DNA of 64,000 nt from Desulfobia sp. (GCA_046497465.1 JAWOFO010000042.1:64651-128650), one strand, 5' to 3'. Shown: positions 23,059-48,340, counted from the stretch's first letter. The notes: a model not told the origin generated them from the sequence alone. Numbers and translations: made by a program.

Positions 23059-24414
23059 ATGGCCCCTAAAAATAAAACGTACTACATATGCCGGAATTGT
23101 GGCGTCTCCTTTAAAAAATGGTCCGGGCAATGTCCTGATTGCCGGCAGTGGAATACTCTGGAAGAGCAGGAAAAGGCGCCTGGTAAAATTCAGGGTTACA
23201 GCGGCGCCGCGGCACGGGTAGAACCTCTTGCCAAGGTCAGCCTTGATTTGGTTTCCCGGGTGCACACCGGAATGGCGGAATTCGATAGGGTTCTGGGTGG
23301 CGGTCTGGTCAGAGGCTCGGTAATTTTGGTCGGAGGGGATCCCGGAGTAGGGAAGAGTACCTGCCTTCTTCAGCTTTCTGCAAATTTAAGCCGGGAAATG
23401 ACCGTACTTTACGCCACCGGCGAGGAATCACCCCAGCAGATTGCCATGAGGGGCAGGCGCCTGGAGCTGGTGCATGATAACCTTTATGTGGCAGCGGAGA
23501 CCAGGGTTGAGGAGATTTGCCGGATGGCGGCAGATTATCAGGCCGGGGTTCTAATAGTGGATTCCATCCAGACTATGCAGACAGAAGAGGTTGATTATGC
23601 TCCGGGCAGTGTTTCGCAGGTGAGGGAGTCGGCGGCCCGCCTTACCAGGCTGGCCAAGGAGACTGGATTGGCGGTTTTTCTGATAGGGCATGTGACTAAA
23701 TCGGGCAGTATAGCCGGTCCCCGGGTACTTGAGCATATTATAGACGTGGTCTGTTATATGGAAGGAGAAAAAGACAGTCGTTTCCGCCTGGTCCGGGCAG
23801 TGAAAAACCGGTACGGAGCGGTCAATGAACTCGGGGTCTTTGCCATGACCGAAAGAGGTATGCGGGAAATAAGCAATCCTTCCGCCATTTTTTTGTCGGG
23901 TCTTGATGAAGTCCTGGCCGGTACCGTTATTATGGCGGTTTGGGAGGGTAGCCGGCCTCTGCTTGTGGAGATCCAGGCCCTAGTTGATGAAAGTCAGGCG
24001 GAGATGCCCCGTCGGCTGACACTGGGACTGGAACATAACAGGCTGGCCATGCTTCTGGCTGTCCTGCACAGGCACGGTGGAGTATCTACCTATAATAAAG
24101 ACATTTTTGTGAATGTAGTAGGTGGAGTAAAGGTTACCGAACCCGGGGCGGATCTGGCTGTGATCATGGCAATTGTCTCCAGTCTGAAAGATGAACCTTT
24201 GCCTGATGACCTGGTGGTTTTCGGAGAAACCGGCTTATCCGGGGAAATAAGACCTGTCCCGGGAGGCCAGGAAAGATTGCGGGAAGCGGCTAAACACGGT
24301 TTCAGGAGGGCTGTTGTACCCGGGGCAAATAAGCCCAAGGAACAGATCCCGGGGCTTGCGGTTATAGCTGTTCAGAAACTGAGTGAAGCCTTGGATGTTT
24401 TACCGTCCTTTTGA
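23059..24414 (+). CDS. radA: DNA repair protein RadA
   Basis: 451 aa with the N-terminal zinc finger YICRNCG...CPDC, Walker A GGDPGVGKST, the KNRYG motif (AVKNRYGAVNE) and a Lon-like C-terminal domain. Confidence 0.95.
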   Translation: MAPKNKTYYICRNCGVSFKKWSGQCPDCRQWNTLEEQEKAPGKIQGYSGAAARVEPLAKVSLDLVSRVHTGMAEFDRVLGGGLVRGSVILVGGDPGVGKSTCLLQLSANLSREMTVLYATGEESPQQIAMRGRRLELVHDNLYVAAETRVEEICRMAADYQAGVLIVDSIQTMQTEEVDYAPGSVSQVRESAARLTRLAKETGLAVFLIGHVTKSGSIAGPRVLEHIIDVVCYMEGEKDSRFRLVRAVKNRYGAVNELGVFAMTERGMREISNPSAIFLSGLDEVLAGTVIMAVWEGSRPLLVEIQALVDESQAEMPRRLTLGLEHNRLAMLLAVLHRHGGVSTYNKDIFVNVVGGVKVTEPGADLAVIMAIVSSLKDEPLPDDLVVFGETGLSGEIRPVPGGQERLREAAKHGFRRAVVPGANKPKEQIPGLAVIAVQKLSEALDVLPSF

Positions 24415-24479
24415 CTTGATCGTGGAATTACTTGATCATGGAATTACAGGAAGTACGGCAATAATCTGTATCTCCTTCG

Positions 24480-24508
24480 TTGACAAGGAAGGGGGGAGAT
24501 GATAATAT
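24480..24508 (+). promoter_or_regulatory. candidate sigma70 promoter for the tRNA-Ser pair
   Basis: TTGACA (24480-24485), a 17-nt spacer, then TAATAT (24503-24508). The element ends 17 nt before the first tRNA. Confidence 0.55.
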
Positions 24509-24525
24509 TTCTTTTTTAATACAGC

Positions 24526-24611
24526 GGAGGAATGGCCGAGCGGTCGAAGGCGGCGGTCTTGAAAACCGTTGAGCGAAAGCTCCGTGGGTTCGAATCCTAC
24601 TTCCTCCGCCA
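24526..24611 (+). tRNA. tRNA-Ser (anticodon UGA)
   Basis: Cloverleaf read by eye: acceptor ggaggaa/ttcctcc, anticodon loop cTTGAaa with stem gcggt/accgt, a long variable arm, T-arm gtggg-ttcgaat-cctac, and an encoded CCA. Confidence 0.9.
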
Positions 24612-24625
24612 TTATCTATATCTGC

Positions 24626-24718
24626 GGAGAGATGACCGAGCTGGCTGATGGTGCTCGCCTGCTAAGCGAGTGTGGGGGTCAAACTCCACCGAGGGTTCGA
24701 ATCCCTCTCTCTCCGCCA
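24626..24718 (+). tRNA. tRNA-Ser (anticodon GCU)
   Basis: Acceptor ggagaga/tctctcc, anticodon stem-loop ctcgc-cTGCTaa-gcgag, a long variable arm, T-arm gaggg-ttcgaat-ccctc, and an encoded CCA. Confidence 0.9.
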
Positions 24719-24844
24719 TTTTTATCACAAGACCAGGCAGTTATAAAGACAGAATAGCCAGAGTCACGCCAGGGCCCATCAGTAAAAAAAACAATGACGA
24801 AAGTTAAGCCGGAAGGGATATTTTCTTAAGCAGAGTTTCCTGCC

Positions 24845-26323
24845 ATGACTGCTGATCCCGGTAATGAAAATAATCCCAAGCCCAGCCTGCCTGCGGCCCT
24901 GCTGCCTATTGCTGTGACCATGGTTCTGATGCTGGTCCAGCTTGTGGTCTTTGACGAGTTCGCCCCCCATATACCCCTGGCCCTGGGAACGGCATTCACC
25001 GGAACCCTGGCTTGGTTCATGGGTTACAAATGGAGGCAGATGGAGACCGGCCTTTTCCACGTGGTCCATATCGGCCTGCCTTCAGTAGCCATCCTGATCA
25101 CCGTGGGAATGATTATCGGGACCTGGATTCTATCCGGAACCGTTCCTCTTCTGATCTATTACGGTCTGAAGATGATCACTCCCCAGTACTTTCCCCTGGC
25201 AGCCATGCTGATTACCTCGGTTGTATCTCTTGCCATAGGGACTTCCTGGGGTACCGTGGGCACGGTGGGCCTGGCCCTGGTGGGCATCGGCGACGGTCTC
25301 GGGATCCCGGTCGGCCTTACCGGCGGGGCCATAGTCTCCGGCGCCTTCTTCGGCGACAAGATGTCTCCCCTGTCAGATACAACCAATCTGGCCCCGGCGG
25401 TTACCTCCACCCAGCTGTTCAGCCATATCCGCAATATGATGGCTACTGCTGTACCGGCCATGCTGACAGCAGGCGCAGTGTACTGGGGGATGGGGCTGGA
25501 ATATGCCGGCCAGACCCTGCATACCGAAAGAGTGACTGTCATACTGGGCGGACTGGAGCAGAGCTTTGTTTTTCATCCCCTGATCCTTATCCCGGCCCTG
25601 CTGGTGATTCTTCTGGCAGTCAAACGGTTTCCCGCCCTGCCTACGCTGTTTGCGGGAATGCTTGCCGGGGCCCTGACCGCCATGATAGCCCAGGACGCCT
25701 CAGTTCACCAGATCTTTACGGTAATGCAGAACGGTTATGAAAGCGCCACTGGTATCATGGCGGTGGACAAGCTGCTCTCCAAGGGGGGGATCCAGTCCAT
25801 GATGTGGACCATATCCCTGGTTCTTATAGCCCTGGCTTTCGGGGGCATCCTGGAGAAGACCCGCTGCCTGGAAGTGGTCCTGAATTCCGTGATCGGCCGG
25901 GTACGGGGCAGGTTTTCCCTGGTGGCCCTAAGTACGGGCGGAGCGGCGGGGACCAACCTGATTACCGGTGATCCCTACCTGGCCATTGCCCTGCCGGGGA
26001 GGATGTTCTCTCCGGTTTTCCGGGGCCAGGGCCTGTCCACCCTTAACCTGTCCCGGGCCATTGAGGAGGGGGGCACCCTGTTAAATCCATTGGTACCCTG
26101 GAGTGCCGGGGGAGCCTTTACCGCCGCCGCCCTGGACATACCCACTCTTACCTATGCCCCCCTGGCCATTGCCTGCTGGTTGTCGCCCCTTATAGGCCTT
26201 CTCTATGCCAGCTTGGGCCGTTTTATGCCCGAGGCCGGTCCGGCCGAGCGCGAACAGTGGCGGCGGGACGGCGAACTCGTCATGGTCGGCAGAAAACTGG
26301 TAAAGGCAGGCGATCTGGAGTAA
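24845..26323 (+). CDS. nhaC: Na+/H+ antiporter, NhaC family
   Basis: 492-aa polytopic membrane protein. The blocks GTSWGTVGTVGLAL, GAFFGDKMSPLSDTTNLA and NPLVPWSAGGAF are typical of NhaC-type antiporters. Confidence 0.85.
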   Translation: MTADPGNENNPKPSLPAALLPIAVTMVLMLVQLVVFDEFAPHIPLALGTAFTGTLAWFMGYKWRQMETGLFHVVHIGLPSVAILITVGMIIGTWILSGTVPLLIYYGLKMITPQYFPLAAMLITSVVSLAIGTSWGTVGTVGLALVGIGDGLGIPVGLTGGAIVSGAFFGDKMSPLSDTTNLAPAVTSTQLFSHIRNMMATAVPAMLTAGAVYWGMGLEYAGQTLHTERVTVILGGLEQSFVFHPLILIPALLVILLAVKRFPALPTLFAGMLAGALTAMIAQDASVHQIFTVMQNGYESATGIMAVDKLLSKGGIQSMMWTISLVLIALAFGGILEKTRCLEVVLNSVIGRVRGRFSLVALSTGGAAGTNLITGDPYLAIALPGRMFSPVFRGQGLSTLNLSRAIEEGGTLLNPLVPWSAGGAFTAAALDIPTLTYAPLAIACWLSPLIGLLYASLGRFMPEAGPAEREQWRRDGELVMVGRKLVKAGDLE

Positions 26324-26370
26324 CCGGCAAGAGACAGTCCTTCCCTGATCAGGATTAATGGTCTCCCGGT

Positions 26371-27006
26371 TTAGGATGGCGGGACCTTTTTCTTTCTCCA
26401 GAGAGCGATCCCGGCCAGCCCGCCGCCCAGAAGGGTAACAGTTGCCGGCTCGGGGATGACATCGACCGAGGCGTTATTAACGGCATCGAAAGTCAGAGGG
26501 TCTCCCCGGGCATCGCCGAGTGCAATTACTGAAATATCCAGGGGGCTGGTTCCCAGGGCCAGGGCAGTAAAGGTCAGGGTGGCCAGGGTGAAGCTGGGAG
26601 CTTGGTTATTTATTAATATGTTGGGCTCATCGATTGAAATTTCATAGAAGTTGACAACATCATTTGTGCTGGCGTCGTAATCCCAGAAAATACCTTGGTC
26701 ATTAAAAGGTTCAGTATCAGCGAAATTCAATGAATTCGAAAAATCCACCTGGTCTCCTCGGTCCGGATCCCCAAAGCTGATACTGTCAAAATAAAGAATC
26801 AAGTCATCGTAATCCACATCCAGGTCAAAGGCGCTGAGGGAAGGCGCCACCCCGTCCCCGAGCCCGGAAATACTGAGGGCGGCATCTACGGTGCCGCCTT
26901 TTGGCACTTCCTGGAACAACGGATCTATACTGAGCATCAGGGCCTGTACCGGTAAGGCCCAGCAGCTTACTAGAACAAATATGAGGAGATTAAGATTTTT
27001 TTTCAT
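26371..27006 (-). CDS. cohesin-like secreted protein with C-terminal PEP-CTERM sorting signal
   Basis: 211 aa with signal peptide MKKNLNLLIFVLVSCWALPVQA. The beta-sandwich region follows a cohesin-like pattern (GGTVDAALSISGL...LSAFDLDVDYDDLILYFDSISFG...FTLATLTFTALALGTSPLDIS). The C-terminus VIPEPATVTLLGGGLAGIALWRKKK gives a PEP motif, a TM helix and a basic tail. The gene lies 36 nt downstream of the giant gene, with GGGAGGA before its ATG. Confidence 0.8.
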   Translation of the reverse strand: MKKNLNLLIFVLVSCWALPVQALMLSIDPLFQEVPKGGTVDAALSISGLGDGVAPSLSAFDLDVDYDDLILYFDSISFGDPDRGDQVDFSNSLNFADTEPFNDQGIFWDYDASTNDVVNFYEISIDEPNILINNQAPSFTLATLTFTALALGTSPLDISVIALGDARGDPLTFDAVNNASVDVIPEPATVTLLGGGLAGIALWRKKKVPPS

Positions 27007-27042
27007 TGGTTTTCCTCCCTAAATACAATCTCGTTGCTTCCT

Positions 27043-30000
27043 TTAGAACGGGTCTCCGGGAATAATATCCGCCCGGCCCTGTGCCCCCGTACTGTCGGTT
27101 ACGGTCAGGGTCAGCAGGTTGATATCTTCAGGAATACAGGCCCCGCTCCAGATCATGACAAAATCATTACCCAGGTAGCTGATCCCCAGACTGGAATTTT
27201 CTATAAGCTGGACAATCTCCGGATCATCACCCAGACTGAAAGAGTAAGGTTCAGTACCGCCCTCTATATCAAAGCCGGTCTCAAAGTAACACCTGTTTAC
27301 CACCTGAGTCGGAGGGGAGAGGGTGAGACCCTCTTCGGCATTGAGGATAAACCGGTATTCCACAGCCCGGCTGACCTCGGAGCGCAGCATAAGGGTACAG
27401 GTCCCTCCCTCCGGGGTCCCGACAGAGGCAAAGCCGCCCGAACCCTCCGCCAGCTGGACCTGATCGGGATCGAAAAGAAAGGCCCTGACTGCCGAGGCGG
27501 TCTCGTCTATCACCACCCCGTCTTCCGTCTCATCAACGTCCAGGGCTACCGGGTCTCCAGTACAGACCCAGGCAAAAACGTCTTCATCTCCCTCCTGTTC
27601 CAGGTTTCCGTTTACCATCTCCCCCAGGTCAATCGGCCTTGGTGCCCCCTGTCCCGAGATGTCGAACTGGATTTCCGGACTCAGGGGATCGTTGCTTTCA
27701 ATCGTCACCGTACCCTGGTAAATCCCGGTCGATCCCGGCTGGAAATCAACACTTATGATCCGGTCATCCCCTTCGGGTTCGATCTGAAAAGGGGTAGGGG
27801 GGACAGTAACAGTGAATACGCTGTCACCGCTGTAGGAAATACTGTTTACCTGCAGGGTTGCCTCGCCGGTATTGCCGATAGAGACGCTCCCGGAGCCACC
27901 TGCACCACAGGGGACTTCTCCGAAATCCAGGGAAGAAGGGGTCAGAGATATGGAGGAGGTTATGCCGTTGCCGGAGAGGGAGCCGTTGAACACCGGGGTA
28001 TCAGGGTCGTTGGATGCAATGGCAACGCTTCCGTATACGGGATCGGTACTTGAAGGAGTAAAAGTTACTGTCAGGCTGCAGGTCCCGGACGGAGCAAGCG
28101 TCCCGGTACAGTCAGAAGCGGCAGTCTCGAATTCGGAGGCCCCGGCTAAGGAGATATCGGTGATCTCGAGGTCGGCATCGCCGCTGTTTTTGATTATCAT
28201 ATCCTGTTCCTGAGAAGTGCCAAGGGGTACGTCGATAAAGACCAGGTTTCCGCCGATAACCACTAGGTCCGGTTCCAGCGCCGCCAGGCCGTTGCCGGAG
28301 AGGGCAATAATGATCGAAGGATCATCCGGATCATTGGAGGTTATGCCAAGTTCGGCTGAGGCCGGGCCGGTCACCGTGGGAGAGAATACCGTGCTGATCG
28401 TACAGTCGCTTGCAGCCGGAAGAACCCCGGGACAGTTATCAAGGTGGTAAATGTCTGCCGAGCCCGAAGTCGAGATCCCGGTTATATCAAGATCTGCATT
28501 GCCGGTGTTTGACAGGGTAACGGGTTGATTTGCGGTATAGCCGATATTGATATCCCCGAAATCGACAGCCGCCGGTGCCACGGATATGTCAGGTTTCAGG
28601 AAAGAGATATCCCTGGTTGCGGATTCGCCCCGGGCATCTGTCACCCTTAAACGGAGCAGGGCGATATCCTGCGGTATACAGCCGTTGATCCGGAGCACTG
28701 CCTGGTCGTTGTTTTCGTACTCCACCTCAAAGCCTTCCGGGGGATAGTCCTGGTAAGGTGAACATATCACCGGCTCGGTTTGATAACAGCCACTCCAGCT
28801 GAACTGGTATGGTTTAAGCCCGCCGTATGCCTTGAAAGTTTTTTCACTTTCACAGAAGGGCAGTACCGCCTCCTCGGGACTGATAGCCAGAGGCCAGTAT
28901 TCGGCGGAACCTTGGTAAAAGATGTGGAGCATTCCGGAATAGCTCCGGCGGTTTTGCAGGGTCGGATCCGAGGGTTCCGGGGCATCGGCAACAGGATCGA
29001 TTATAAGCATGTCATCCCCTAGAAAAGGATTCAGGTCTCCGGCGCCGATAAAGACGCCGAATCCCGGTCTTGAAATCCCGGCTTTGGCTTGCGGACCTGT
29101 GAACAGGTAATCCAGGCCGTCTTCAAGGGCCGTTCCCGGATTATCGGTATAATCAATCTCCCCGGAGTACCACCGCCGGTTCTCCAGATGGATCAAATCT
29201 CCTCCCTCACTGTCTTCCCATAAGGGGGATTCACTGCCGTAGAGCACCCAGACGTGTCCCGGCAGATTTGCTCCGCCCCTGCCGGAAGGGGCTCCCACCA
29301 GTAAATCGTTAAAACCGTCATTGTTCAGATCTCCGGAAGACAGGGAGTAGCCGAATCTGCATATCGATCTTGAGCCGCTGATGAGTACGTCTTTTATGCC
29401 TTCGACGTTTACCAGGCCGTCAAGTTGGGTACTGTTTCCGTCGATCAGGTATACCCGTCCCACCCCGGTTTCATTTATCTCAACCCTGCTCTGGATCTCA
29501 GGGTCCTTGATCATGGAATGATACATCTCCAGTTCGAGTTTTGCAGAGGGCGCCCCGACAACTATCTCGCCTCTGCCGTCCCGGTTCAGATCAACTATGC
29601 CGGTAGAAGCTGCAAATCCCGTTCTCTCATCTTCGCTCCAGATCCTGGGGCCCTCGATGAGGACATCCTGATTTCCCTCAGAAAGCGGGCCGGCGTAGAG
29701 ATATCCCCGCAGCATTGAATCACCGTAAAAGATATAGGCTGCTCCCTGACGCAGAGACAGTTCAGCCCCGGCCGGGACTCTGCCATAGTCCGGTGCCCCT
29801 ATGAGCAGGTCGTCATGGCCGTCCCCGTTGATATCTTCCATTGCCAGTGATTTCCCCAGCCCGTCGCCTTTGTACTGCACGTATTCACCGGTCTGAAAGT
29901 CGATAATATCAGTCTGGTAGACATTCTGTCCCTCTATGACAGCGCGGTAGGGACGGAACAAGTATAAGTCGTCCGGGATCTTCACGTCTTTGGGCATGGA

Positions 30001-33000
30001 AACGTAACCGGGATGGAAGATGTAGGCCCGGGCCACCAGTTGATTTACGGAGTCAGGATCCACCGGATCAGTGGGTGCGGTAATTACCAGGTCACCGCCG
30101 AAGCCGTAGATGTTGCCGATTGCCACCTGGTAGCCCAGTTCCCGCTCATCGTCGCTGTAAAACATCACATCATAATTACCCTGGCCCACATTATAAGCTG
30201 ACTGCCATTCCTCCCTACCGTAAAAGAGATAGGCTTTTCCGGGCAGATGACCCGGGTAGTCTACCTGATTGATCTCTATATTCGGCCGGTGAAGACCGGA
30301 CTCGTCCTGGTCGGTTGTGCCGATAAGGAGATCATCAACACCGTCCCCGTTGATATCGCCCAGGGCCAGGGAGTTTCCGAGACGCCTGCTGTTGCCCCCG
30401 GTATGGATATCGCCGCTGTCCCCTGTGATCTTTACATCCCAGGCCGGGGTGACGGTGGAGAGATCAACAGTATCCACAACCCTGCTGCCGTAAAGCTCCC
30501 CGATTCCTTCCACAGGACCGAAGGCGATATAAACCGCCCCGATGGCATAACCCAGATTACGATACTCGGGCATCCCGATCACCAGGTCGTTTATACCGTC
30601 ACCATTGAGGTCACCTATGGCAGCGCTCCTCAGATAAGTGTACCGGTCTCCAAAGGCCAGCAAATCCTGGTCGTCGGCGCTGGTAAAACCCGCGGATTCA
30701 TAGGGAAGAATCCTGATTCCGTTCTGATCGCAGTTGTTGCTCTGACAGGGAAGATTCGCACCTACCTTCAGGGTTGCCCCGAAATCAGTACCATCGTAAG
30801 CCAGGCCGTCCTGGTGGAACTCCGGAATCTCGAAGGCGTACCAGTCATATCTGGTATGTTTTTTCACCCAGGTGTCCGCCGGCTGGATTTCGAAAAGCCG
30901 GTTGCCGTAAGAAAGAGTCAGGTCGCTGTCAGCCGCATAAGGGGTCAGATAGTTGCCCGATATATACAGGGTGTCCCCGGGATACATGGATGGATTTCTG
31001 AGGTTTAGGGTGGCATCCAGATCCGGACTGGGAGGTATAAAGACGGGAGGGCTTTCCCGGTAGTTGGCAGGATAGGCGGCGGACTCGTCCCTAACCCTAA
31101 TGGAAAGCCAGCCCGGCTTGTGTCCCCAGTAATATCCATATTTGGTGCAGGAATCAGTCCGTGGATTCCCGCAGTAATCCGGTGCTCCGTTCCAGAGGAG
31201 AAGAGGGAGGCCGGAGCGGGCACTGAACCCCCTGCCCTCGACGATCAGATCGTACCTGTCCCGCCAGCATCCAATCCAGATATCTTCCACTACATTATAT
31301 GTGCAGAACTCGTCCCAGTAAGTGGTGGGTTCCCAGTTCCAGTCTTCTACAATCGGGACCTCAATAACCTCGACCGGGAAATAGGGAGGATAATCGGTTC
31401 CCCATTCCAGGCATTCGTCATCGACCAGATTCTCGCATCTGGTCTTTGACGGATACTGGTAGTCCCCGCACTCCGCCTGAATATCGAACTCGGCCGTGCC
31501 GGTGAACAAGCCGGCATTAACGGTGTGGGTCTCGTGAACAGCGCCGGCATCTTCTATGGTCAGGAAGTCCGAGGGCTCGGTGGTTTCCAGGGTTGACGGC
31601 ACTCCCACATCCAGCATGGTAACGTGGATTTCATCTATATCCAGGAGATCAACGGCAAAGGCCACTACAAAGTCCCCCAGAACATCCTCGAGAAAGGACT
31701 CCAGATCCACTCCTGCTATTTGTTTTATGATGGAGAAGAGACCGAACGGATCAGGGATATCTATTGCCAGGTCTCCGTGTTCTATCAGTTCCGTGAAACC
31801 GGCATTGGTAAAGTTGGCGTAGAGACTTAATTCGTTGCTCGTATCAGTATAGAAGATATGGTTGCTGATCCCTTCAAAAGGCCCTGAAGCAGCGACCTTC
31901 CACTCACTGGGAAAGGTAGGGACTCCGGCCTGGAGGACGTCTGCCACCAGGTCTATTACCGAAGTGATGGCCTCGATTATTCCGTCAATAGCATCAACGG
32001 TTGCAATAAGCTCGGTAATAAAGGGGATGGCCGCGCAGCAGGGTACACAGCCGAAGAAGCAGGAGATCGAATTTCCGGCTAGAGACACGTACAGGATAAC
32101 CCTGGTTGAATCCAGGATTTCGTCTATTGTTTCAAAGGGGTCTGCTATGTCATTAAGAATGTCTACGACTTCACTGACATTACAGACGGCCTCACCGTCT
32201 GGAGAATGACTCAGTATTTCGTTTATCAGTTCGAATTTCTGCTTTATAAGTAAAAAGGCTTCACTCCCGAAGACGGCGTCGAGATTTGCCTTTACTTCAT
32301 CGCTGGGAATAGAGTCCACTCTGTCCCTTAAGGTTTCCACGAAATTCATGGTCCCGGCCATGTTTTCTTCCAGCAGGGCCCACTTCTCCGGAGGTATGTT
32401 CGGCTTTGTCAAGTGCTCCAGTTTAGCGAAGACTCTCTGCAGCTGGGTGACCAGCAGGTCCAACTGGTAGTCCACCTCGTTGCCTTTCAGGTCCGGAGTA
32501 GGATCCTGGGCGGGCATCACCTGAAAACCGAGGGAATTGGATATACTTTGTTCATCGTATACATATACCTGCAGACTCTCCTCGCTTTTCAGGAAGATGA
32601 AGGGGACCATGACCTTAAGGTAATTTTCCGTTGCCTCCAGCACTACTCCCTTACTACCGTATTCATCCCCCTGGAAATAGGCCTCCATTACCTGCCGGTC
32701 AGGAGTGAAGCCGGAGCCGGTAACGGTTATGATGGTCCCTGTCTGACCGGACGGCGGTGAAATATCATCCAGGAACAGGGCCGGTACCGGATTATAATTG
32801 ACGGCAAATTTAGCAGGCGGGCTCTGTACTCCGTTGATCAGCACAGAAACCTCAAAATCGTTTAAGCCGGCAGTGAGCTTTACTGATTTTTCAAAATAGC
32901 CGTTCTCATTGACTGTCTCTACAGTTTCACCGGTAGTAGTATTGCTGATAACAACTGTTCCGCCTGGTACTGAAACACCCTTAAGCGTAATGGTCTCGTT

Positions 33001-33240
33001 GTCTGTCACCTTTGGTGGAGGTGCCAGCAACGGCTTGCCCAACACGGTTATAACTGTGCTGTCTTCAGGGCTTGTCATGTTTTTGTTGTCGGTTACCACC
33101 AGTGAAAAATTAAAAACCCCCTGCTTCAAAGAAACAGAGGGTGTGATCACATCCTCCGGGTCAGGGGAACCCGACCAGGTATAGTTACTGATTGTGCCGT
33201 CCGGATCACGGGAAGAGCTGCCGTCAAGCTGGATATCCAT
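27043..33240 (-). CDS. giant secreted multidomain surface protein (PKD, IPT/TIG, unknown ~600-aa region, 7-blade FG-GAP propeller, 3 choice-of-anchor-D/ASH-like repeats, He_PIG-like and PPC-like modules); main uninterrupted ORF
   Basis: This is a 2065-codon ORF counted from its first in-frame ATG. Motifs read from the translation follow.
- PKD-like: DGSSSRDPDGTISNYTW.
- IPT/TIG-like: ISPPSGQTGTIITVTGSGFT (32704-32763).
- Seven Ca-binding FG-GAP blades between ~28990 and 30620: GDLNGDGINDLVIG, GDINGDGVDDLLIG, GFGGDLVITAP, EDINGDGHDDLLIGAP (29791-29838), VDLNRDGRGEIVVGAP (29548-29595), GDLNNDGFNDLLVGAP, GDLNPFLGDDMLII.
- Three ~100-aa repeats each ending ...SNDP...SGNG/SGQG (~27650-28595).
- Two G.(K/E)PY.FS...VTD..G modules.
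The true N-terminus lies upstream (see the next feature). Confidence 0.9.
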   Translation of the reverse strand: MDIQLDGSSSRDPDGTISNYTWSGSPDPEDVITPSVSLKQGVFNFSLVVTDNKNMTSPEDSTVITVLGKPLLAPPPKVTDNETITLKGVSVPGGTVVISNTTTGETVETVNENGYFEKSVKLTAGLNDFEVSVLINGVQSPPAKFAVNYNPVPALFLDDISPPSGQTGTIITVTGSGFTPDRQVMEAYFQGDEYGSKGVVLEATENYLKVMVPFIFLKSEESLQVYVYDEQSISNSLGFQVMPAQDPTPDLKGNEVDYQLDLLVTQLQRVFAKLEHLTKPNIPPEKWALLEENMAGTMNFVETLRDRVDSIPSDEVKANLDAVFGSEAFLLIKQKFELINEILSHSPDGEAVCNVSEVVDILNDIADPFETIDEILDSTRVILYVSLAGNSISCFFGCVPCCAAIPFITELIATVDAIDGIIEAITSVIDLVADVLQAGVPTFPSEWKVAASGPFEGISNHIFYTDTSNELSLYANFTNAGFTELIEHGDLAIDIPDPFGLFSIIKQIAGVDLESFLEDVLGDFVVAFAVDLLDIDEIHVTMLDVGVPSTLETTEPSDFLTIEDAGAVHETHTVNAGLFTGTAEFDIQAECGDYQYPSKTRCENLVDDECLEWGTDYPPYFPVEVIEVPIVEDWNWEPTTYWDEFCTYNVVEDIWIGCWRDRYDLIVEGRGFSARSGLPLLLWNGAPDYCGNPRTDSCTKYGYYWGHKPGWLSIRVRDESAAYPANYRESPPVFIPPSPDLDATLNLRNPSMYPGDTLYISGNYLTPYAADSDLTLSYGNRLFEIQPADTWVKKHTRYDWYAFEIPEFHQDGLAYDGTDFGATLKVGANLPCQSNNCDQNGIRILPYESAGFTSADDQDLLAFGDRYTYLRSAAIGDLNGDGINDLVIGMPEYRNLGYAIGAVYIAFGPVEGIGELYGSRVVDTVDLSTVTPAWDVKITGDSGDIHTGGNSRRLGNSLALGDINGDGVDDLLIGTTDQDESGLHRPNIEINQVDYPGHLPGKAYLFYGREEWQSAYNVGQGNYDVMFYSDDERELGYQVAIGNIYGFGGDLVITAPTDPVDPDSVNQLVARAYIFHPGYVSMPKDVKIPDDLYLFRPYRAVIEGQNVYQTDIIDFQTGEYVQYKGDGLGKSLAMEDINGDGHDDLLIGAPDYGRVPAGAELSLRQGAAYIFYGDSMLRGYLYAGPLSEGNQDVLIEGPRIWSEDERTGFAASTGIVDLNRDGRGEIVVGAPSAKLELEMYHSMIKDPEIQSRVEINETGVGRVYLIDGNSTQLDGLVNVEGIKDVLISGSRSICRFGYSLSSGDLNNDGFNDLLVGAPSGRGGANLPGHVWVLYGSESPLWEDSEGGDLIHLENRRWYSGEIDYTDNPGTALEDGLDYLFTGPQAKAGISRPGFGVFIGAGDLNPFLGDDMLIIDPVADAPEPSDPTLQNRRSYSGMLHIFYQGSAEYWPLAISPEEAVLPFCESEKTFKAYGGLKPYQFSWSGCYQTEPVICSPYQDYPPEGFEVEYENNDQAVLRINGCIPQDIALLRLRVTDARGESATRDISFLKPDISVAPAAVDFGDINIGYTANQPVTLSNTGNADLDITGISTSGSADIYHLDNCPGVLPAASDCTISTVFSPTVTGPASAELGITSNDPDDPSIIIALSGNGLAALEPDLVVIGGNLVFIDVPLGTSQEQDMIIKNSGDADLEITDISLAGASEFETAASDCTGTLAPSGTCSLTVTFTPSSTDPVYGSVAIASNDPDTPVFNGSLSGNGITSSISLTPSSLDFGEVPCGAGGSGSVSIGNTGEATLQVNSISYSGDSVFTVTVPPTPFQIEPEGDDRIISVDFQPGSTGIYQGTVTIESNDPLSPEIQFDISGQGAPRPIDLGEMVNGNLEQEGDEDVFAWVCTGDPVALDVDETEDGVVIDETASAVRAFLFDPDQVQLAEGSGGFASVGTPEGGTCTLMLRSEVSRAVEYRFILNAEEGLTLSPPTQVVNRCYFETGFDIEGGTEPYSFSLGDDPEIVQLIENSSLGISYLGNDFVMIWSGACIPEDINLLTLTVTDSTGAQGRADIIPGDPF

Positions 33241-33620
33241 TGCAGTCTCTCCCTCCGGAAGGACAATGGTTCTGTCATTACCCGCATCCGCTACAGGTGG
33301 CTGGTTCTCGGACTCGACGATTTCACACCTGGGAAGGTCACACCGGAGGATAAGCTTTCTGGCGTCAAGGACGGTGATTGTACCGTCACCGTCTATATCA
33401 CAGTCTGGATTACTTGTTGCAGGCTGGTTCCTGTAAGAAAGGAGAATATTCAGGTCGTTTCTGTCTACGTCTCCGTCACCGTCGATATCTCCGGTGAGGG
33501 CCTGGGCCGGATTAACTCCAAGAAAGAGCCATATTATGAGGGAAAAAAGAGTTAAGGTACCGCTGTGAATCCAAGACCTTTTTTTGCAGTCCTGCTTTGA
33601 TAACGAACGATCTTTGACAT
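33241..33620 (-). other. upstream extension of the giant gene: ATG plus signal-peptide n-region (frame A), then h/c-region and a two-repeat dockerin-type module (main frame)
   Basis: The main frame stays open for 150 codons above the first ATG; the upstream stop is at 33691-33693. That stretch has no ATG, GTG or TTG. It encodes ...KKRSWIHSGTLTLFSLIIWLFLGVNPAQA|LTGDIDGDGDVDRNDLNILL (33439-33492) ... CDIDGDGTITVLDARKLIL (33346-33402). An ATG at 33620, with GGGGTGA upstream, opens MSKIVRYQSRTAKK in the other frame. That frame terminates at 33552-33554. Confidence 0.7.
33579..33585 (-). repeat. A7 homopolymer (T7 on + strand) = A AAA AAA G slippery site linking the two frames of the giant gene
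   Basis: In the frame of the 33620 ATG the sequence reads gca aaa aaa ggt. A -1 slip, or one extra A, reads aaa aaa agg tct tgg, which is the main ORF frame. Confidence 0.6.
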
Positions 33621-40625: not shown

Positions 40626-41609
40626 ATGGAAGAATTTCTGCGGATAATAACCTACATAGTCTGCATATCCGCTTTTGTCGGCGCCAACCTGGCCTGGCTC
40701 GGCTGGGTGGAAAGGAAGGGCGCCGGCCGGCTTCAAAGGAGAACAGCACTGAAAGAGGTTGGGCCATTCGGCCTTCTCCAGCCCCTGGCGGACGGCCTCA
40801 AACTTATGTCCAAACAGCTTCATGTCCCTCGTGATGCTGATCGCCCCCTGTACATGCTTGCCCCGGTGATCGCCATGGTGCCCATGATAATGACCTTTGT
40901 GGTTATTCCTTTCAATGAGGGTCTTGTTCCCCGGGATTTCAATATGGGTCTTCTAGTGATTTTCGCCTTTGCCGCTCTCAGTGTTTTAGCCCTGCTTCTG
41001 GGGGGTTGGGCTTCGCGAAACAAGTATGCACTTATTTCAGCAAGCCGGGCGGTCTCTCAGAATATCGCCTACGAGATTCCCATGTTGCTTACCGCTATTA
41101 CAGTAGTAATGGCCACCGGTACCATGAATCTCACCGAGATTGTCAATCAGCAGGCAGGAACCATAATTAAATGGAATTTTCTACGCCTGGATAATTCCAT
41201 ACTCATGCCGGTGTCGTTTCTTATTTTCTTTGTATGTAGTGTAGCTGAAACCAATCGTGCCCCCTTTGATCTGGGTGAGGCGGAAAGTGAGTTGATCGCT
41301 GGATTTCATACCGAGTATTCGGGAATGGGATTCGGGCTTTTTATGATGGCTGAGTATGGCTATATACTTATAGGCTGCTGTTTTACCACTATACTGTTTC
41401 TGGGGGGCTGGCACTGTCCCTTTGGATTCTATCCGGGTATACACTGGTTCTTAATTAAAACTTATTTTTTGATCTGGGTAATTGTCTGGATCAGGTGGAC
41501 ATTTCCCAGGGTTACGGTATGGGGACTGTTGAATCTTTCCTGGATGTACCTTATCCCGGCGGCCCTGTTTAATCTGATATTGACAGGCGCGTTTCTCAAG
41601 GTGTTTTGA
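40626..41609 (+). CDS. nuoH: NADH-quinone oxidoreductase subunit H
   Basis: 327-aa polytopic protein with the GPFGLLQPLADGLKL and VAETNRAPFDLGEAESELIAGFHTEYSGM motifs. Confidence 0.95.
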   Translation: MEEFLRIITYIVCISAFVGANLAWLGWVERKGAGRLQRRTALKEVGPFGLLQPLADGLKLMSKQLHVPRDADRPLYMLAPVIAMVPMIMTFVVIPFNEGLVPRDFNMGLLVIFAFAALSVLALLLGGWASRNKYALISASRAVSQNIAYEIPMLLTAITVVMATGTMNLTEIVNQQAGTIIKWNFLRLDNSILMPVSFLIFFVCSVAETNRAPFDLGEAESELIAGFHTEYSGMGFGLFMMAEYGYILIGCCFTTILFLGGWHCPFGFYPGIHWFLIKTYFLIWVIVWIRWTFPRVTVWGLLNLSWMYLIPAALFNLILTGAFLKVF

Positions 41610-43141: not shown

Positions 43142-44641
43142 ATGGATAGCGTTACTGCAGCAGGCACAACAGAAATAATTACTTCAGCCAAACTTGTACT
43201 TGCACTACTTACACCTCTACTGGGTGCTTGTCTGGTAAGTTTTTCTGGCAGGAAACCCAATGTCAGAGAGATGTGGTCGGTTCTTGCGGCAGTTATTACA
43301 TTTTTACTGGTCGCCTCCATGATACCGCAAGTCTGGGATGGTAAGACCTTGTTTTATGAGATTTTCCAGATTCTGCCCGGTGTAACCGTGAGTCTGAGGG
43401 CAGATGCCCTGTCCATGGTCTTTGCCTTGATAGCATCCGTCCTCTGGATAGGGGCTGCCTTTTATTCCATGGGTTATATGAGGGCTCACAAGGCGCATTC
43501 ACAGACCCGGTTCAACACCTGTTTCGCCATTGCCATCTTTGGGGCAGTAGGTGTTGCTTTCAGCGACAATCTCTTTACCCTTTACCTGTTTTACGAAGTA
43601 GTAAGTATAAGTACCTATCCTCTGGTTGCCCATGATCAGGATAAAAAGGCCTACGTTGGCGGCAAGAAGTACATGGTTTATCTGACTACCATGGCCAAGG
43701 GATTGATCCTGCCGGCAATGGCGATCATCTATGTTATGACCGGCAGTCTTGATTTTCCGCATGATATATACTCGGGCATCATTCCTGATGACGCCAATTC
43801 GGCAATCGTGGTTATGCTCTTCATATTCTGCCTGTTCGGCTTTGCCAAGAACGGGGTCATGCCCTTTCACCACTGGCTGCCCGGGGCCATGGTTGCACCT
43901 ACACCGGTCTCCGCCCTCCTGCATGCAGTGGCTGTTGTTAAGGCAGGGGTATTCAGCACCATCCGGGTGATGCTCTACGTTTTTGGCGTAAATCTCATGG
44001 ATCTCCTAAATCTGGGCATAACTACCGCCTATTTTGTCGGTTTTACCATAATTATGGCTTCAGTTATTGCCATAACCAAGGATAATCTCAAGGCCAGGCT
44101 GGCCTATTCCACGGTCAGCCAGCTGTCCTACATCATACTGGGAGTCTGCCTGCTGACACCTCACGGTATTCAGGGAGGGATAGTGCATATAGCCAACCAC
44201 GCCTTTTCCAAGATCACTCTCTTTTTCTGTGCAGGTGCCATAATTGTCGCCCACCATAAAAAGGATATCTCCGAGATGGACGGACTGGGCAGGGCCATGC
44301 CTTTCACTTATGCCGCCTTTGCAGTTGCCTCTCTAAGTATGATAGGCGCTCCTCCGGTGGCCGGCTTCGTGACCAAATGGCAATTGCTGATGGGTACGAT
44401 TGAAGCTGGATCATTCGGTATCATTCTGATTCTTCTGGCCAGTACCCTGCTTAATGTCTGTTACTTCGGGCCCGTCGTTTACAGGGGATTTTTCTGCAAG
44501 CCTCCACCAGGGGTCACATATGACAGTATTAAGGAGGCACCTATGTCCATGGTTATACCACTGTGCTGTACGGCTATAATTTCAGTAATAATAGGAATTT
44601 ATCCTGATTTTTTTATGAACTTTGTGATTAGGGTGTTGTAA
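43142..44641 (+). CDS. extra antiporter-like (MrpD/NuoL/M/N superfamily) proton-conducting membrane subunit
   Basis: 499 aa with about 14 TM helices and the superfamily blocks FYEVVSISTYPLV, HHWLPGAMVAPTPVSALLHAVAVVKAGV and HIANHAFSKITLFFCAG. It has no NuoL-type C-terminal lateral-helix extension. Confidence 0.8.
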   Translation: MDSVTAAGTTEIITSAKLVLALLTPLLGACLVSFSGRKPNVREMWSVLAAVITFLLVASMIPQVWDGKTLFYEIFQILPGVTVSLRADALSMVFALIASVLWIGAAFYSMGYMRAHKAHSQTRFNTCFAIAIFGAVGVAFSDNLFTLYLFYEVVSISTYPLVAHDQDKKAYVGGKKYMVYLTTMAKGLILPAMAIIYVMTGSLDFPHDIYSGIIPDDANSAIVVMLFIFCLFGFAKNGVMPFHHWLPGAMVAPTPVSALLHAVAVVKAGVFSTIRVMLYVFGVNLMDLLNLGITTAYFVGFTIIMASVIAITKDNLKARLAYSTVSQLSYIILGVCLLTPHGIQGGIVHIANHAFSKITLFFCAGAIIVAHHKKDISEMDGLGRAMPFTYAAFAVASLSMIGAPPVAGFVTKWQLLMGTIEAGSFGIILILLASTLLNVCYFGPVVYRGFFCKPPPGVTYDSIKEAPMSMVIPLCCTAIISVIIGIYPDFFMNFVIRVL

Positions 44642-46666: not shown

Positions 46667-46795
46667 TGACAGGGGGAGACACAGTGAGAACTGGGAAGAG
46701 CTTAAGGAGTATTTAAACAATTTATAATTCTCGAACTGTTAACTAGAAGTTGCATCTTAAATCTTAAATCTACGCACCTTAGAGGTTTTCCGGTA

Positions 46796-48298: not shown

Positions 48299-48340
48299 TT
48301 AACCAACATATTACTTAACACCTAACAACAAGGAAAAGAA

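What the first reader, a model, noticed from the sequence alone, without database searches (positions are those of the whole stretch)
26371..33620. Candidate cohesin-dockerin surface-tethering pair: giant dockerin-bearing propeller protein plus a cohesin-like PEP-CTERM anchor protein
Seen in the sequence: the giant gene's in-frame upstream extension encodes a Sec-type leader (…LTLFSLIIWLFLGVNPAQA). This is followed directly by two EF-hand-like segments, GDIDGDGDVDRNDLNILL and CDIDGDGTITVLDARKLIL, spaced about 12 aa apart. That is the duplicated Ca-loop-plus-helix layout of type I dockerins.

The remainder is a long adhesin-like array: PKD, IPT/TIG, an unknown region, a seven-blade FG-GAP/integrin-alpha-like propeller, three choice-of-anchor-D/ASH-like beta-sandwiches, two He_PIG-like modules and a PPC-like module. 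It carries no C-terminal sorting signal of its own.

The next gene, 36 nt downstream with its own RBS, encodes a 211-aa secreted protein. Its body follows the cohesin beta-sandwich pattern (…GGTVDAALSISGL…LSAFDLDVDYDDLILYFDSISFG…LATLTFTALALGTSPLDIS…). It ends in a textbook PEP-CTERM anchor (PEP, a TM helix, then RKKK).

Inference: the small protein is exosortase-anchored and displays the giant protein through a cohesin-dockerin contact. Non-cellulosomal cohesin and dockerin modules are known in general. A dedicated two-gene PEP-CTERM-cohesin plus giant dockerin/FG-GAP adhesin module in a sulfate-reducer-like genome is something I have not seen described.
Basis: partly seen in the sequence, partly recalled or inferred. 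Interest (0 to 1): 0.85.

Follow-up and report, generated by a model that had tools for sequence, protein, structure and literature searches.

The report
Exosortase-anchored cohesin with dockerin-tagged giant adhesin
A small surface-anchor protein with a cohesin fold sits next to a giant adhesin-like protein carrying the matching dockerin plug, and the same two-gene cassette recurs across many Gram-negative phyla with very different cargo proteins, pointing to a general and apparently undescribed way of tethering secreted proteins to the cell surface or matrix.

Summary

**The small protein.** The 211-aa protein (26371-27006, minus strand) is a signal peptide, a cohesin beta-sandwich and a PEP-CTERM anchor. 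The AF2 model has pLDDT 88, and all top 50 PDB fold matches are cohesins.

**The giant protein.** It carries, right after a Sec leader, a two-loop dockerin. All top 21 PDB fold matches of its model are dockerins.

**The pairing in other genomes.**
- In 35 non-redundant related loci with at least 3 kb of flank on both sides, 29 have a gene with this same about 57-aa dockerin within 500 nt of the cohesin gene, and 4 more have one within 3.5 kb.
- The dockerin is N- or C-terminal, and the cargo varies (adhesins, phosphatase, nuclease-like, peptidase-like).
- Reverse look-ups from two dockerin proteins also land next to a cohesin gene.
- The cohesin family has about 1,500 clusters at E<=1e-30. It has no curated model, and no searchable paper links PEP-CTERM with cohesin or dockerin.

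**Caveats.**
- No exosortase is visible in the 64-kb window or in about 3.8 kb and 2.5 kb of extra flank.
- The leader-plus-dockerin frame has no ATG, GTG or TTG. The good ATG at 33620 is one base out of frame across an A7 run.
- He_PIG and PPC modules were not confirmed.

**Verdict.** This is a new variant of a known kind: a non-cellulosomal cohesin-dockerin pair anchored by an exosortase signal.

The parts
26371..27006 (-). Gene for the 211-aa anchor protein: signal peptide, cohesin domain and PEP-CTERM (stop codon included).
   Evidence: ORF. It has 149 homologs of about 200 aa. The family profile finds 1,489 cluster representatives at E<=1e-30.
26941..27006 (-). Sec signal peptide of the anchor protein (MKKNLNLLIFVLVSCWALPVQA).
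   Evidence: Read directly from the translation. The AF2 model has a helix at residues 5-14 before the beta-sandwich.
26458..26940 (-). Cohesin beta-sandwich (about residues 23-183).
   Evidence: AF2 pLDDT 88.2. All top 50 Foldseek PDB hits are cohesins, with E down to 2.4e-10 and TM(target) up to 0.79. Pfam Cohesin scores 16.5 bits here, below the cut-off, but matches 26 of 63 family members.
26374..26457 (-). PEP-CTERM sorting signal: IPEP, a transmembrane helix (ATVTLLGGGLAGIALW), then RKKK.
   Evidence: Pfam PF07589 scores 26.1 bits (cut-off 20.7). TIGR02595 scores 21.5 bits (cut-off 16).
27014..27020 (-). Shine-Dalgarno sequence AGGGAGG of the anchor gene, inside the 36-nt gap after the giant gene's stop codon (27043-27045).
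   Evidence: Sequence read. No terminator-like site was found in the gap.
27043..33620 (-). Giant adhesin-like gene. It encodes about 2,192 aa if read from ATG 33620 with a -1 shift, or 2,065 aa from ATG 33240 as PGAP annotated it.
   Evidence: NCBI names the 2,065-aa version MFO7761380.1, a 'choice-of-anchor D domain-containing protein' of Desulfobia sp..
33618..33620 (-). Candidate true start codon ATG, preceded by the Shine-Dalgarno-like GGGGTGAT. It is one base out of frame with the dockerin frame.
33579..33585 (-). A7 run where a -1 shift (or an eighth A) joins MSKIVRYQSRTAKK to RSWIHSGTLTLFSLIIWLFLGVNPAQA.
   Evidence: An independent MAG has the same frame (P0121). No stable downstream RNA structure was found (z = +1.66).
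33499..33578 (-). Remainder of the Sec leader (hydrophobic region, then the AQA cleavage site).
   Evidence: Translation. The ortholog P0126 has a normal ATG, a leader and a dockerin.
33325..33492 (-). Dockerin module: two Ca-loop-plus-helix repeats (DIDGDGDVDRND..., DIDGDGTITVLD...) and a Cys-containing tail (LRCDLPRC).
   Evidence: Pfam Dockerin_1 scores 21.6 bits against 22.9. A family-specific HMM gives E=5.5e-32. AF2 pLDDT is 81.7. The top 21 PDB fold hits are dockerins, the best being 2y3n_B at rmsd 1.3 A over 53 residues.
33043..33285 (-). PKD domain (K319L-like).
   Evidence: Pfam PF22352, E=1.8e-11, residues 106-186 of the 2,185-aa translation.
32521..32772 (-). IPT/TIG domain.
   Evidence: Pfam PF01833, E=4.9e-7, residues 277-360.
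29221..30783 (-). FG-GAP (integrin-alpha-like) repeat region. Seven DxNGDG-type motifs; boundaries are approximate.
   Evidence: Pfam FG-GAP E=5e-33 in 5 stretches, and FG-GAP_3 E=2e-10. Motifs were counted in the translation.
27646..28608 (-). Three choice-of-anchor D / ASH-HYDIN-type Ig domains.
   Evidence: NCBIfam NF012200, 180.6 bits, 3 stretches. Pfam HYDIN_VesB_CFA65-like_Ig, Cep192_D4 and ASH.

Best explanation
This is a two-gene surface-display cassette.

**The anchor.** The small protein is exported by Sec. Its PEP-CTERM tail is the recognition signal for an exosortase (the EpsH/Xrt family). That leaves a single cohesin domain attached at the cell envelope or exopolysaccharide matrix.

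**The cargo.** The giant protein has an array of PKD, TIG, a seven-repeat FG-GAP region and three choice-of-anchor D domains, and no anchor of its own. It carries a Ca-binding dockerin directly after its signal peptide. It is held non-covalently, one to one, by dockerin-cohesin binding.

**The family.** Across bacteria the same anchor and plug are reused for many cargos. The dockerin is therefore a portable 'attach me to the PEP-CTERM cohesin' tag.

**Shown here:**
- the folds of both modules;
- the sorting signal;
- the conserved adjacency of the two genes;
- the interchangeability of the cargo.

**Inferred, not shown:**
- the physical binding and its Ca dependence;
- processing by an exosortase and the final location;
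- how the cargo crosses the outer membrane.
For: **Module identity**
- Cohesin fold of the small protein: pLDDT 88.2, all top 50 PDB hits are cohesins.
- Dockerin fold of the segment at 33295-33510: top 21 PDB hits are dockerins.
- PEP-CTERM scores above both curated cut-offs.

**Adjacency**
- Among 105 non-redundant related loci, 35 have at least 3 kb of flank on both sides. Of these, 29 have a dockerin-module ORF within 500 nt, 4 within 3.5 kb, and 2 have none.
- Dockerin hit density is 0.14 per kb within 4 kb of the cohesin gene, against 0.032 per kb further away.

**Portability of the tag**
- The module is the only thing the partner proteins share. It sits at the C-terminus of upstream genes, at the N-terminus of downstream genes, or, as here, at the N-terminus of an upstream gene.
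- Cargos include Big_5/He_PIG, CarboxypepD_reg, TSP3+CARDB, cadherin/PKD, purple-acid-phosphatase-like, Exo_endo_phos and Peptidase_M64/PcRGLX.

**Conservation as a unit**
- An ortholog of the giant (43% identity, normal ATG, leader plus dockerin) is followed after 67 nt by a 38%-identical cohesin-PEP-CTERM gene, in a different genomic neighbourhood.
- Reverse look-ups from dockerin proteins of Ca. Desulfofervidus auxilii and Desulfobacter latus each find a cohesin-family gene 36-68 nt upstream (HMM E=1e-80 and 3e-43).
- One locus has two cassettes in tandem (L039).
- Divergence of the cohesin and of its adjacent dockerin is correlated: Mantel r=0.58, reached by 0 of 2000 permutations.

**Link to the exosortase system**
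- One cassette (L003) lies in an XrtA/PEP-CTERM-type exopolysaccharide locus.
- Haft et al. 2006 (PMC1569441) report that PEP-CTERM co-occurs with an EpsH homolog, an outer membrane and EPS genes.
Against: - There is no direct or in-silico test of binding.
- The window proteins fall below the Pfam gathering scores for Cohesin (16.5 against 24.1) and Dockerin_1 (21.6 against 22.9).
- A PDB sequence-profile search found a cohesin only at E=0.27.
- No exosortase-like gene appears in the 64-kb window or in about 3.8 kb and 2.5 kb beyond its ends.
- A minority of cohesin genes have no dockerin neighbour (L022, L049, L084, L101).
- In this genome the leader and dockerin have no canonical in-frame start codon, so the giant protein may currently be made without them, or not exported at all.
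- The Mantel correlation is confounded by shared phylogeny.
Confidence: 0.75

Rival explanations
1. The two genes are functionally linked but do not bind through a cohesin-dockerin contact. The small protein would be a cohesin-fold PEP-CTERM matrix or structural protein, or a carbohydrate binder. The Ca-binding module on the neighbour would only stabilise it or bind polysaccharide. Adjacency would then reflect co-regulation or co-secretion.
For: - Binding is untested.
- Both modules fall below the Pfam cut-offs in the window proteins.
- Some cohesin genes have no dockerin neighbour.
- Functions of non-cellulosomal cohesin and dockerin modules are described as unknown in the literature (PMC5244752).
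Against: - The only feature shared by about 80 otherwise unrelated neighbour proteins is this one about 57-aa module. It appears at whichever terminus and in whichever gene order, next to this one cohesin family.
- Every characterised pairing of these two folds in the PDB hit lists is a cohesin-dockerin complex.
- The divergence of the two modules is correlated.
Confidence: 0.15
2. In this particular genome the cassette is switched off or decaying. With A7, translation from ATG 33620 ends after 22 codons. The giant protein would then be made, if at all, from an internal start without leader or dockerin. This could be a phase-variable OFF state (A8 would be ON), a pseudogene, or a homopolymer error.
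For: - There is no ATG, GTG or TTG in the leader-plus-dockerin frame between the upstream stop and 33240.
- ATG 33620 has a strong Shine-Dalgarno sequence (GGGGTGAT) but lies in the other frame. One extra A would restore a textbook leader, MSKIVRYQSRTAKK-RSWIHSGTLTLFSLIIWLFLGVNPAQA.
- PGAP annotated the 2,065-aa version without leader or dockerin (MFO7761380.1).
- The ortholog L123/L124 is also split by a frameshift, in two separate contig records.
Against: - The same frame is present in a second MAG assembly, where PGAP used an ATT start upstream (P0121, MGM0682193.1). A rare ATT or CTG start, or slippage on the A run, therefore remains possible.
- The leader-plus-dockerin frame is intact and highly conserved (about 70-79% identity to dockerins of other proteins), which argues against long-standing decay.
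- No stimulatory RNA structure was found for programmed frameshifting.
Confidence: 0.3
3. The resemblance is due to chance. The DxDxDG loops would be generic EF-hand or thrombospondin-like motifs, and the small protein a generic beta-sandwich.
For: - The Pfam scores are sub-threshold.
- TSP_3 repeats with similar Asp-rich loops occur in some partner proteins.
Against: - The fold searches return only cohesins (top 50) and only dockerins (top 21).
- The family-specific dockerin HMM gives E=5.5e-32 for the window protein.
- The adjacency statistics argue against chance.
Confidence: 0.02

Closest known systems
Single-cohesin cell-surface anchoring proteins of Clostridium thermocellum (OlpA, OlpC; SLH-anchored type I cohesins that hold individual dockerin-bearing enzymes).
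   Same: - One cohesin per anchor protein tethers one dockerin-tagged secreted protein to the cell surface.
- OlpA and OlpC complexes are among the best structural matches (3ul4_A at E=1.7e-9, and 4dh2).
   Different: - The anchor here is a PEP-CTERM/exosortase signal in Gram-negative bacteria, not SLH repeats on a Gram-positive wall.
- The cargos are adhesin-like proteins, phosphatase-, nuclease- and peptidase-like proteins rather than glycoside hydrolases.
- The anchor and cargo genes are adjacent, as a cassette.
- Sequence identity to these cohesins is only 12-18%.
Ruminococcus flavefaciens ScaE (a cohesin covalently anchored through LPXTG and sortase).
   Same: - A cohesin whose own C-terminal sorting signal is processed by a dedicated transpeptidase-type sorting enzyme.
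- ScaE appears among the fold matches (2zf9_B).
- Haft et al. 2006 propose PEP-CTERM/EpsH as the analogue of LPXTG/sortase (PMC1569441).
   Different: - The system here is exosortase rather than sortase, and the attachment target is unknown.
- No multi-cohesin scaffoldin hierarchy sits on top of the anchor.
- The dockerin subtype differs: a CTRPRC tail, with no X-module.
Non-cellulosomal cohesin-dockerin modules (survey by Peer et al. 2009; Archaeoglobus fulgidus cohesin 2xdh; Clostridium perfringens NagH/NagJ complex 2ozn).
   Same: - Cohesin and dockerin modules are used outside cellulose degradation.
- Both structures appear in the hit lists (2xdh; 2ozn_B).
   Different: - Those reports, as far as I know and as far as the searchable library shows, do not describe a PEP-CTERM-anchored single-cohesin family or a conserved anchor-plus-client gene cassette.
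- Peer et al. 2009 could not be read here.
PEP-CTERM/exosortase substrates in general (Haft et al. 2006), for example the floc-forming PepA proteins.
   Same: - An N-terminal signal peptide, followed by a C-terminal PEP motif, a transmembrane helix and a basic cluster.
- The carriers are environmental Gram-negative bacteria.
   Different: [quoted passage not shown]
- This family has a recognisable binding fold and is nearly always paired with a partner gene.
- No NCBIfam PEP-CTERM subfamily model reaches its cut-off on this protein.

Membership tests
Cohesin (Pfam PF00963) | Nine-stranded beta-sandwich (jelly-roll) cohesin fold. | tested here: met
   AF2 pLDDT 88.2 and pTM 0.78. All top 50 Foldseek PDB matches are cohesins, with E from 2.4e-10 and TM(target) up to 0.79.
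Cohesin (Pfam PF00963) | Sequence match to the family profile above the curated cut-off. | tested here: not met
   The window protein scores 16.5 bits against a cut-off of 24.1, E=0.01. At family level, 26 of 63 members match at E<=0.01, best 2.5e-7. A PDB profile search gave only E=0.27, to a scaffoldin cohesin.
Cohesin (Pfam PF00963) | Binds a dockerin module. | not testable with these tools
Only genomic co-occurrence is available.
Dockerin type I (Pfam PF00404) | Two tandem Ca-binding loop-plus-helix repeats with Asp/Asn at loop positions 1, 3, 5, 9 and 12. | tested here: met
   Direct reading gives D-I-D-G-D-G-D-V-D-R-N-D and D-I-D-G-D-G-T-I-T-V-L-D (Thr at position 9 of the second loop), about 32 residues apart. 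The model has helices at residues 17-25 and 47-55.
Dockerin type I (Pfam PF00404) | Sequence match to the family profile above the curated cut-off. | tested here: inconclusive
   The window protein scores 21.6 bits against 22.9, E=2.5e-4. The near-identical protein P0121 carries a precomputed PF00404 hit. The relative in L011 scores 23.7 bits.
Dockerin type I (Pfam PF00404) | Dockerin fold. | tested here: met
   AF2 pLDDT 81.7. The top 21 Foldseek PDB matches are dockerins. The best is 2y3n_B, rmsd 1.3 A over 53 residues, probability 1.00. E-values are weak (0.017 at best) because the domain is small.
Dockerin type I (Pfam PF00404) | Two-fold internal symmetry that allows a dual binding mode. 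| tested here: inconclusive
   The two repeats differ at positions 10-11 (R-N against V-L) and in the helices (NILLSY against RKLILR). The second helix plus the CTRPRC tail is the most conserved part. This suggests a single binding mode, but it is inference only.
PEP-CTERM / exosortase substrates (TIGR02595, PF07589) | C-terminal PEP motif, transmembrane helix and basic cluster, together with an N-terminal signal peptide. | tested here: met
   PF07589 scores 26.1 bits (cut-off 20.7) and TIGR02595 scores 21.5 (cut-off 16). The sequence reads IPEP-ATVTLLGGGLAGIALW-RKKK.
PEP-CTERM / exosortase substrates (TIGR02595, PF07589) | An exosortase (EpsH/Xrt) encoded in the same genome. | not testable with these tools
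   No candidate was found among the window ORFs or in about 3.8 kb and 2.5 kb beyond its two ends. A related cassette lies in an XrtA-type EPS locus.
Cellulosome | A multi-cohesin scaffoldin with a carbohydrate-binding module and dockerin-bearing glycoside hydrolases. | tested here: not met
   The anchors have a single cohesin and are about 190-290 aa long. The cargos examined contain no glycoside hydrolase domains.

The most novel reading that the evidence does not exclude
The dockerin acts as a portable sorting tag that works in trans. Proteins without any anchor of their own would join the exosortase/PEP-CTERM display pathway by plugging into a dedicated single-cohesin PEP-CTERM adaptor encoded next door. 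This 'plug-and-display' system would be widespread, spanning Thermodesulfobacteriota, Gammaproteobacteria, Verrucomicrobiota, Acidobacteriota, Nitrospirota, cyanobacteria and others. It would give most non-cellulosomal cohesin-dockerin pairs of Gram-negative bacteria a concrete function. It would also give exosortase systems a way to display very large or enzymatic cargos, possibly reversibly through Ca2+.
Probability: 0.6. Interest if true: 0.8.

Novelty: new variant of a known kind. Interest (0 to 1): 0.7.

Why it matters
Two open questions meet here: what non-cellulosomal cohesin-dockerin modules do, and what PEP-CTERM/exosortase systems display and how they do it. A review in the library states that the function of the former is 'not known' (PMC5244752).

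A conserved anchor-plus-client cassette with thousands of family members gives both questions a direct experimental handle. Carriers include the cultured organisms Desulfobacter latus and Paraglaciecola hydrolytica S66, and Ca. Desulfofervidus auxilii, which has a complete genome record (CP013015.1).

The cassette also offers a compact orthogonal cohesin-dockerin pair for surface display in Gram-negative hosts.

For annotation, it shows that PGAP's 2,065-aa model of this gene drops the leader and the dockerin.

Tried and rejected
- **AFDB fold search.** A search of the cohesin model against afdb50, meant to see UniProt names, was unavailable.
- **The search for related loci with the 63-sequence alignment.** It failed because no stretch was conserved enough. 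A 13-sequence alignment worked.
- **PDB sequence-profile search with the family alignment.** It gave only E=0.27 to a scaffoldin cohesin. Fold comparison was needed instead.
- **Peer et al. 2009 (PMC3035643).** The paper is not held.
- **Programmed -1 frameshifting at the A7 run.** The 90 nt downstream fold no better than shuffled sequences (z = +1.66), and A7 runs are common in the window (62). I do not claim programmed frameshifting.
- **Exosortase search.**
  - No candidate multi-pass membrane ORF in the window looks like one. The 7-TM ORF at 40626-41609 lies in a run of multi-pass membrane ORFs (43142-49762) that I read as a respiratory complex I cluster, though no family search was run on it.
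  - Extending about 3.8 kb and 2.5 kb beyond the two window ends found none.
  - A crude multi-TM and Cys-motif screen of the related loci gave nothing usable.
- **NCBIfam PEP-CTERM subfamily models.** None of EDSAP-1, THxN, FxDxF, PepA or XDP1 reaches its cut-off on the small protein.

Full report
**What is in the window**

On the minus strand a 211-aa ORF (26371-27006) follows the stop codon of a giant ORF (27043-27045) after 36 nt. A strong ribosome-binding site (AGGGAGG, 27014-27020) lies 7 nt before its ATG, and no terminator-like site lies between the genes.

The ORF finder starts the giant gene at ATG 33240 (2,065 aa). The frame stays open upstream to about 33690. There it encodes ...KKRSWIHSGTLTLFSLIIWLFLGVNPAQA|LTGDIDGDGDVDRNDLNILLSYRNQPATSNPDCDIDGDGTITVLDARKLILRCDLPRCEIVE.

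The window comes from a Candidatus Desulfobia (Desulfobulbaceae) MAG. NCBI holds the 2,065-aa version as MFO7761380.1, 'choice-of-anchor D domain-containing protein'.

**Profile tests**

For the giant protein:
- Pfam finds FG-GAP (5e-33), three HYDIN/ASH-type Ig domains, a K319L-type PKD (1.8e-11) and TIG (4.9e-7).
- Dockerin_1 scores E=2.5e-4, 21.6 bits, just under the 22.9-bit cut-off.
- NCBIfam finds three choice-of-anchor D domains (180.6 bits).
- Seven DxNGDG-type FG-GAP motifs can be counted in the translation.

For the small protein:
- PEP-CTERM passes both curated cut-offs (PF07589 26.1 > 20.7; TIGR02595 21.5 > 16).
- Pfam Cohesin is sub-threshold (16.5 against 24.1 bits).

**Fold tests**

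I built a 63-sequence family alignment (A1). With it, AlphaFold2 models the small protein at pLDDT 88.2 as a beta-sandwich between a signal helix and a C-terminal transmembrane helix. All top 50 Foldseek PDB matches are cohesins of types I, II and III. They include OlpA, OlpC and ScaE, the non-cellulosomal A. fulgidus module and C. perfringens modules. E-values start at 2.4e-10 and TM(target) reaches 0.79. Pfam Cohesin also matches 26 of 63 family members at E<=0.01, best 2.5e-7.

The 72-aa dockerin segment (33295-33510) models at pLDDT 81.7 with two helices. Its top 21 PDB matches are all dockerins. The best is 2y3n_B, rmsd 1.3 A over 53 residues. E-values are weak because the domain is tiny.

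**The decisive evidence is comparative**

The small protein belongs to a large family of about 200-aa proteins with a signal peptide, a cohesin and a PEP-CTERM tail.
- A word-indexed search found 149 homologs.
- An exhaustive profile search found 9,678 cluster representatives at E<=1e-3 and 1,489 at E<=1e-30. All of the top 150 are full-length single-domain proteins.

The first three homolog contexts I opened had a large secreted protein just upstream. The three upstream proteins had unrelated architectures (Peptidase_M64/PcRGLX, NIDO/TSP3, no Pfam match). Yet each ended in a module nearly identical to the window's N-terminal dockerin. One example is GDLDGDGDIDRNDLNILLGYRDQPASACIACDLDEDGTITVLDARKLVITCTRPRCSCE*.

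I then fetched 36 genome loci and 80 metagenome loci. I scanned all stop-to-stop ORFs with an HMM grown from those modules.
- Of 105 non-redundant cohesin loci, 35 have at least 3 kb of flank on both sides.
- Of those 35, 29 have a dockerin-module ORF within 500 nt, 4 within 3.5 kb, and 2 have none.
- Hit density is 0.14 per kb within 4 kb of the cohesin gene, against 0.032 per kb further out.

The carriers include Thermodesulfobacteriota, Gammaproteobacteria (including Methylococcales and the isolate Paraglaciecola hydrolytica S66), Verrucomicrobiota, Acidobacteriota, Nitrospirota, Deferribacteres and cyanobacteria.

The dockerin may sit in any of these positions:
- at the C-terminus of the upstream gene (the majority);
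- at the N-terminus, after a signal peptide, of the downstream gene (for example L010 at 2,840 aa and L038 at 2,482 aa);
- at the C-terminus of a downstream or convergent gene;
- at the N-terminus of the upstream gene, as in the window.

The cargos are diverse:
- Ig-like and He_PIG giants;
- CarboxypepD_reg arrays;
- TSP3+CARDB;
- cadherin/PKD/DUF11;
- a purple-acid-phosphatase-like enzyme;
- an LTD+Exo_endo_phos protein.

**Further tests of the pairing**

- An ortholog of the window's giant protein (43% identity) has a normal ATG, a leader, a dockerin, PKD and TIG. It is followed after 67 nt by a cohesin-PEP-CTERM gene (38% identity, family HMM E=1.6e-76). Its genomic neighbourhood is entirely different.
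- I also started from dockerin-only matches to the window protein. The dockerin proteins of Ca. Desulfofervidus auxilii (complete genome CP013015.1) and Desulfobacter latus each have a cohesin-family gene 36-68 nt upstream (E=1e-80 and 3e-43).
- One locus carries two cassettes in tandem (L039).
- Pairwise divergence of the cohesins and of their adjacent dockerins is correlated (Mantel r=0.58; 0 of 2000 permutations reach it). Shared phylogeny contributes to this value.
- One cassette lies among XrtA/PEP-CTERM-type exopolysaccharide genes. TIGR03088 scores 402 bits against a 409-bit cut-off there, and a TIGR03108-like amidotransferase is present.

**The dockerin subtype**

The family consensus is GDLDGDGDVDRDDLNIILAARNQPASGSDPRDLDGDGVITALDARKLVLLCTRPRCA.
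- The second helix and a C-x4-C tail (CTRPRC) are the most conserved parts.
- A subset has an extra CxxC just before loop 2.
- The two repeats are not symmetric, so a single binding mode seems more likely than the dual mode of classical type I dockerins. This is inference only.

**Mechanism proposed**

Both proteins are exported by Sec. The exosortase recognises the PEP-CTERM tail of the small protein and leaves its cohesin at the envelope or exopolysaccharide matrix. Haft et al. 2006 propose this system as analogous to LPXTG/sortase and report that it co-occurs with EpsH, an outer membrane and EPS genes (PMC1569441). The dockerin of the neighbour protein binds that cohesin in a Ca-dependent manner, tethering a cargo that has no anchor of its own.

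The folds, the sorting signal and the genomic coupling are shown. Binding, processing, the final location and passage across the outer membrane are inferred.

**A complication in this window**

The leader-plus-dockerin frame has no ATG, GTG or TTG. A well-placed ATG (33618-33620, with Shine-Dalgarno-like GGGGTGAT upstream) lies one base out of frame and would terminate after 22 codons. A -1 shift, or one extra A, in the A7 run at 33579-33585 yields a textbook leader, MSKIVRYQSRTAKK-RSWIHSGTLTLFSLIIWLFLGVNPAQA.

A second MAG has the same frame. There PGAP chose an upstream ATT start (MGM0682193.1), while for this MAG it chose ATG 33240 and so dropped the leader and dockerin. No stimulatory RNA structure follows the run, and A7 runs are common in the window.

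I cannot decide between a phase-variable OFF state, a rare start codon, slippage and a homopolymer error.

**Comparison with what is known**

The closest functional analogues are:
- the single-cohesin anchors OlpA and OlpC of C. thermocellum, which are SLH-anchored;
- the sortase-anchored cohesin ScaE of R. flavefaciens.

Non-cellulosomal cohesin-dockerin modules are known from surveys and from a few structures.

The following points are, as far as I can tell, undescribed:
- the PEP-CTERM anchor;
- the Gram-negative setting;
- the tight anchor-plus-client cassette;
- the interchangeable non-glycosidase cargos;
- the CTRPRC dockerin subtype.

No paper in the searchable library contains PEP-CTERM together with cohesin or dockerin. 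The single paper that contains exosortase together with cohesin or dockerin treats them separately. No NCBIfam family model covers the small protein. Haft et al. note that most PEP-CTERM genes are single-gene operons, so this family is an exception to that pattern.

Two limits apply. The library lacks most subscription-journal papers, and Peer et al. 2009 could not be read.

**Verdict**

This is not a cellulosome. It is best filed as a new variant of cohesin-dockerin tethering, coupled to exosortase sorting. Interest is 0.7.

Noticed in passing
window 33579-33620 (-): The giant gene's leader-plus-dockerin frame has no canonical start codon. ATG 33620, which has a strong Shine-Dalgarno sequence, is one base out of frame across an A7 run, and one extra A would restore a perfect signal peptide. 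Two NCBI annotations of the same sequence disagree: one uses ATG 33240 (2,065 aa, no leader or dockerin) and the other uses an upstream ATT.
   Followed up: partly
L123 about 11800-11920; L124 about 6300-6400: The 43%-identical ortholog of the giant gene is split into overlapping 638-aa and 1,809-aa ORFs by a frameshift. The split is present in two separate contig records (JGI/NCBI and Logan). A second frame disruption in this gene family may hint at phase variation or recurrent assembly trouble.
   Followed up: partly
window 24001-32000: G+C is 0.54-0.55 across the predicted multi-pass membrane gene (24845-26323), the cohesin gene and most of the giant gene, against 0.43-0.50 in most of the window. 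The counterpart of that membrane gene in L002 has a Pfam Na_H_antiporter hit and is also next to the cassette there (the 70%-identical relative). This may mark a horizontally acquired block.
   Followed up: no
window about 31900-32150 (-), residues about 490-560 of the giant protein: The region between TIG and FG-GAP has no Pfam match. It contains a hydrophobic, Cys-rich motif (SCFFGCVPCCAAIPF) that is conserved in the homologs P0122, P0123 and P0125, including two (P0123, P0125) that carry a different N-terminal domain in place of the dockerin. This is an uncharacterised domain.
   Followed up: no
L039 4506-9945: Two cohesin and dockerin-client cassettes lie in tandem (cohesin, client, cohesin, client) in a Thermoanaerobaculia MAG. 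This suggests the pair duplicates as a unit.
   Followed up: partly
L003 1-20612: This cassette is embedded among XrtA/PEP-CTERM-type exopolysaccharide genes. TIGR03088-like glycosyltransferase scores 402 bits against a 409-bit cut-off. TIGR03108-like amidotransferases and Acetyltransf_6 genes are also present.
   Followed up: partly
L022, L049, L084, L101: A minority of cohesin-PEP-CTERM genes have no detectable dockerin-bearing neighbour despite at least 1.4 kb of flank on each side (10 kb on both sides in L022). Their partners may be encoded elsewhere or may be too divergent to detect.
   Followed up: partly
dockerin modules of all loci (for example window 33325-33400): The dockerin subtype ends in a nearly invariant C-x4-C tail (CTRPRC). 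About a third of the modules also have a CxxC just before the second Ca loop. These are probably disulfides or a clasp and are not a feature of the Pfam type I consensus.
   Followed up: partly
whole window: Runs of seven or more A/T are over-represented: 62 matches against 23 expected from shuffles.
   Followed up: no
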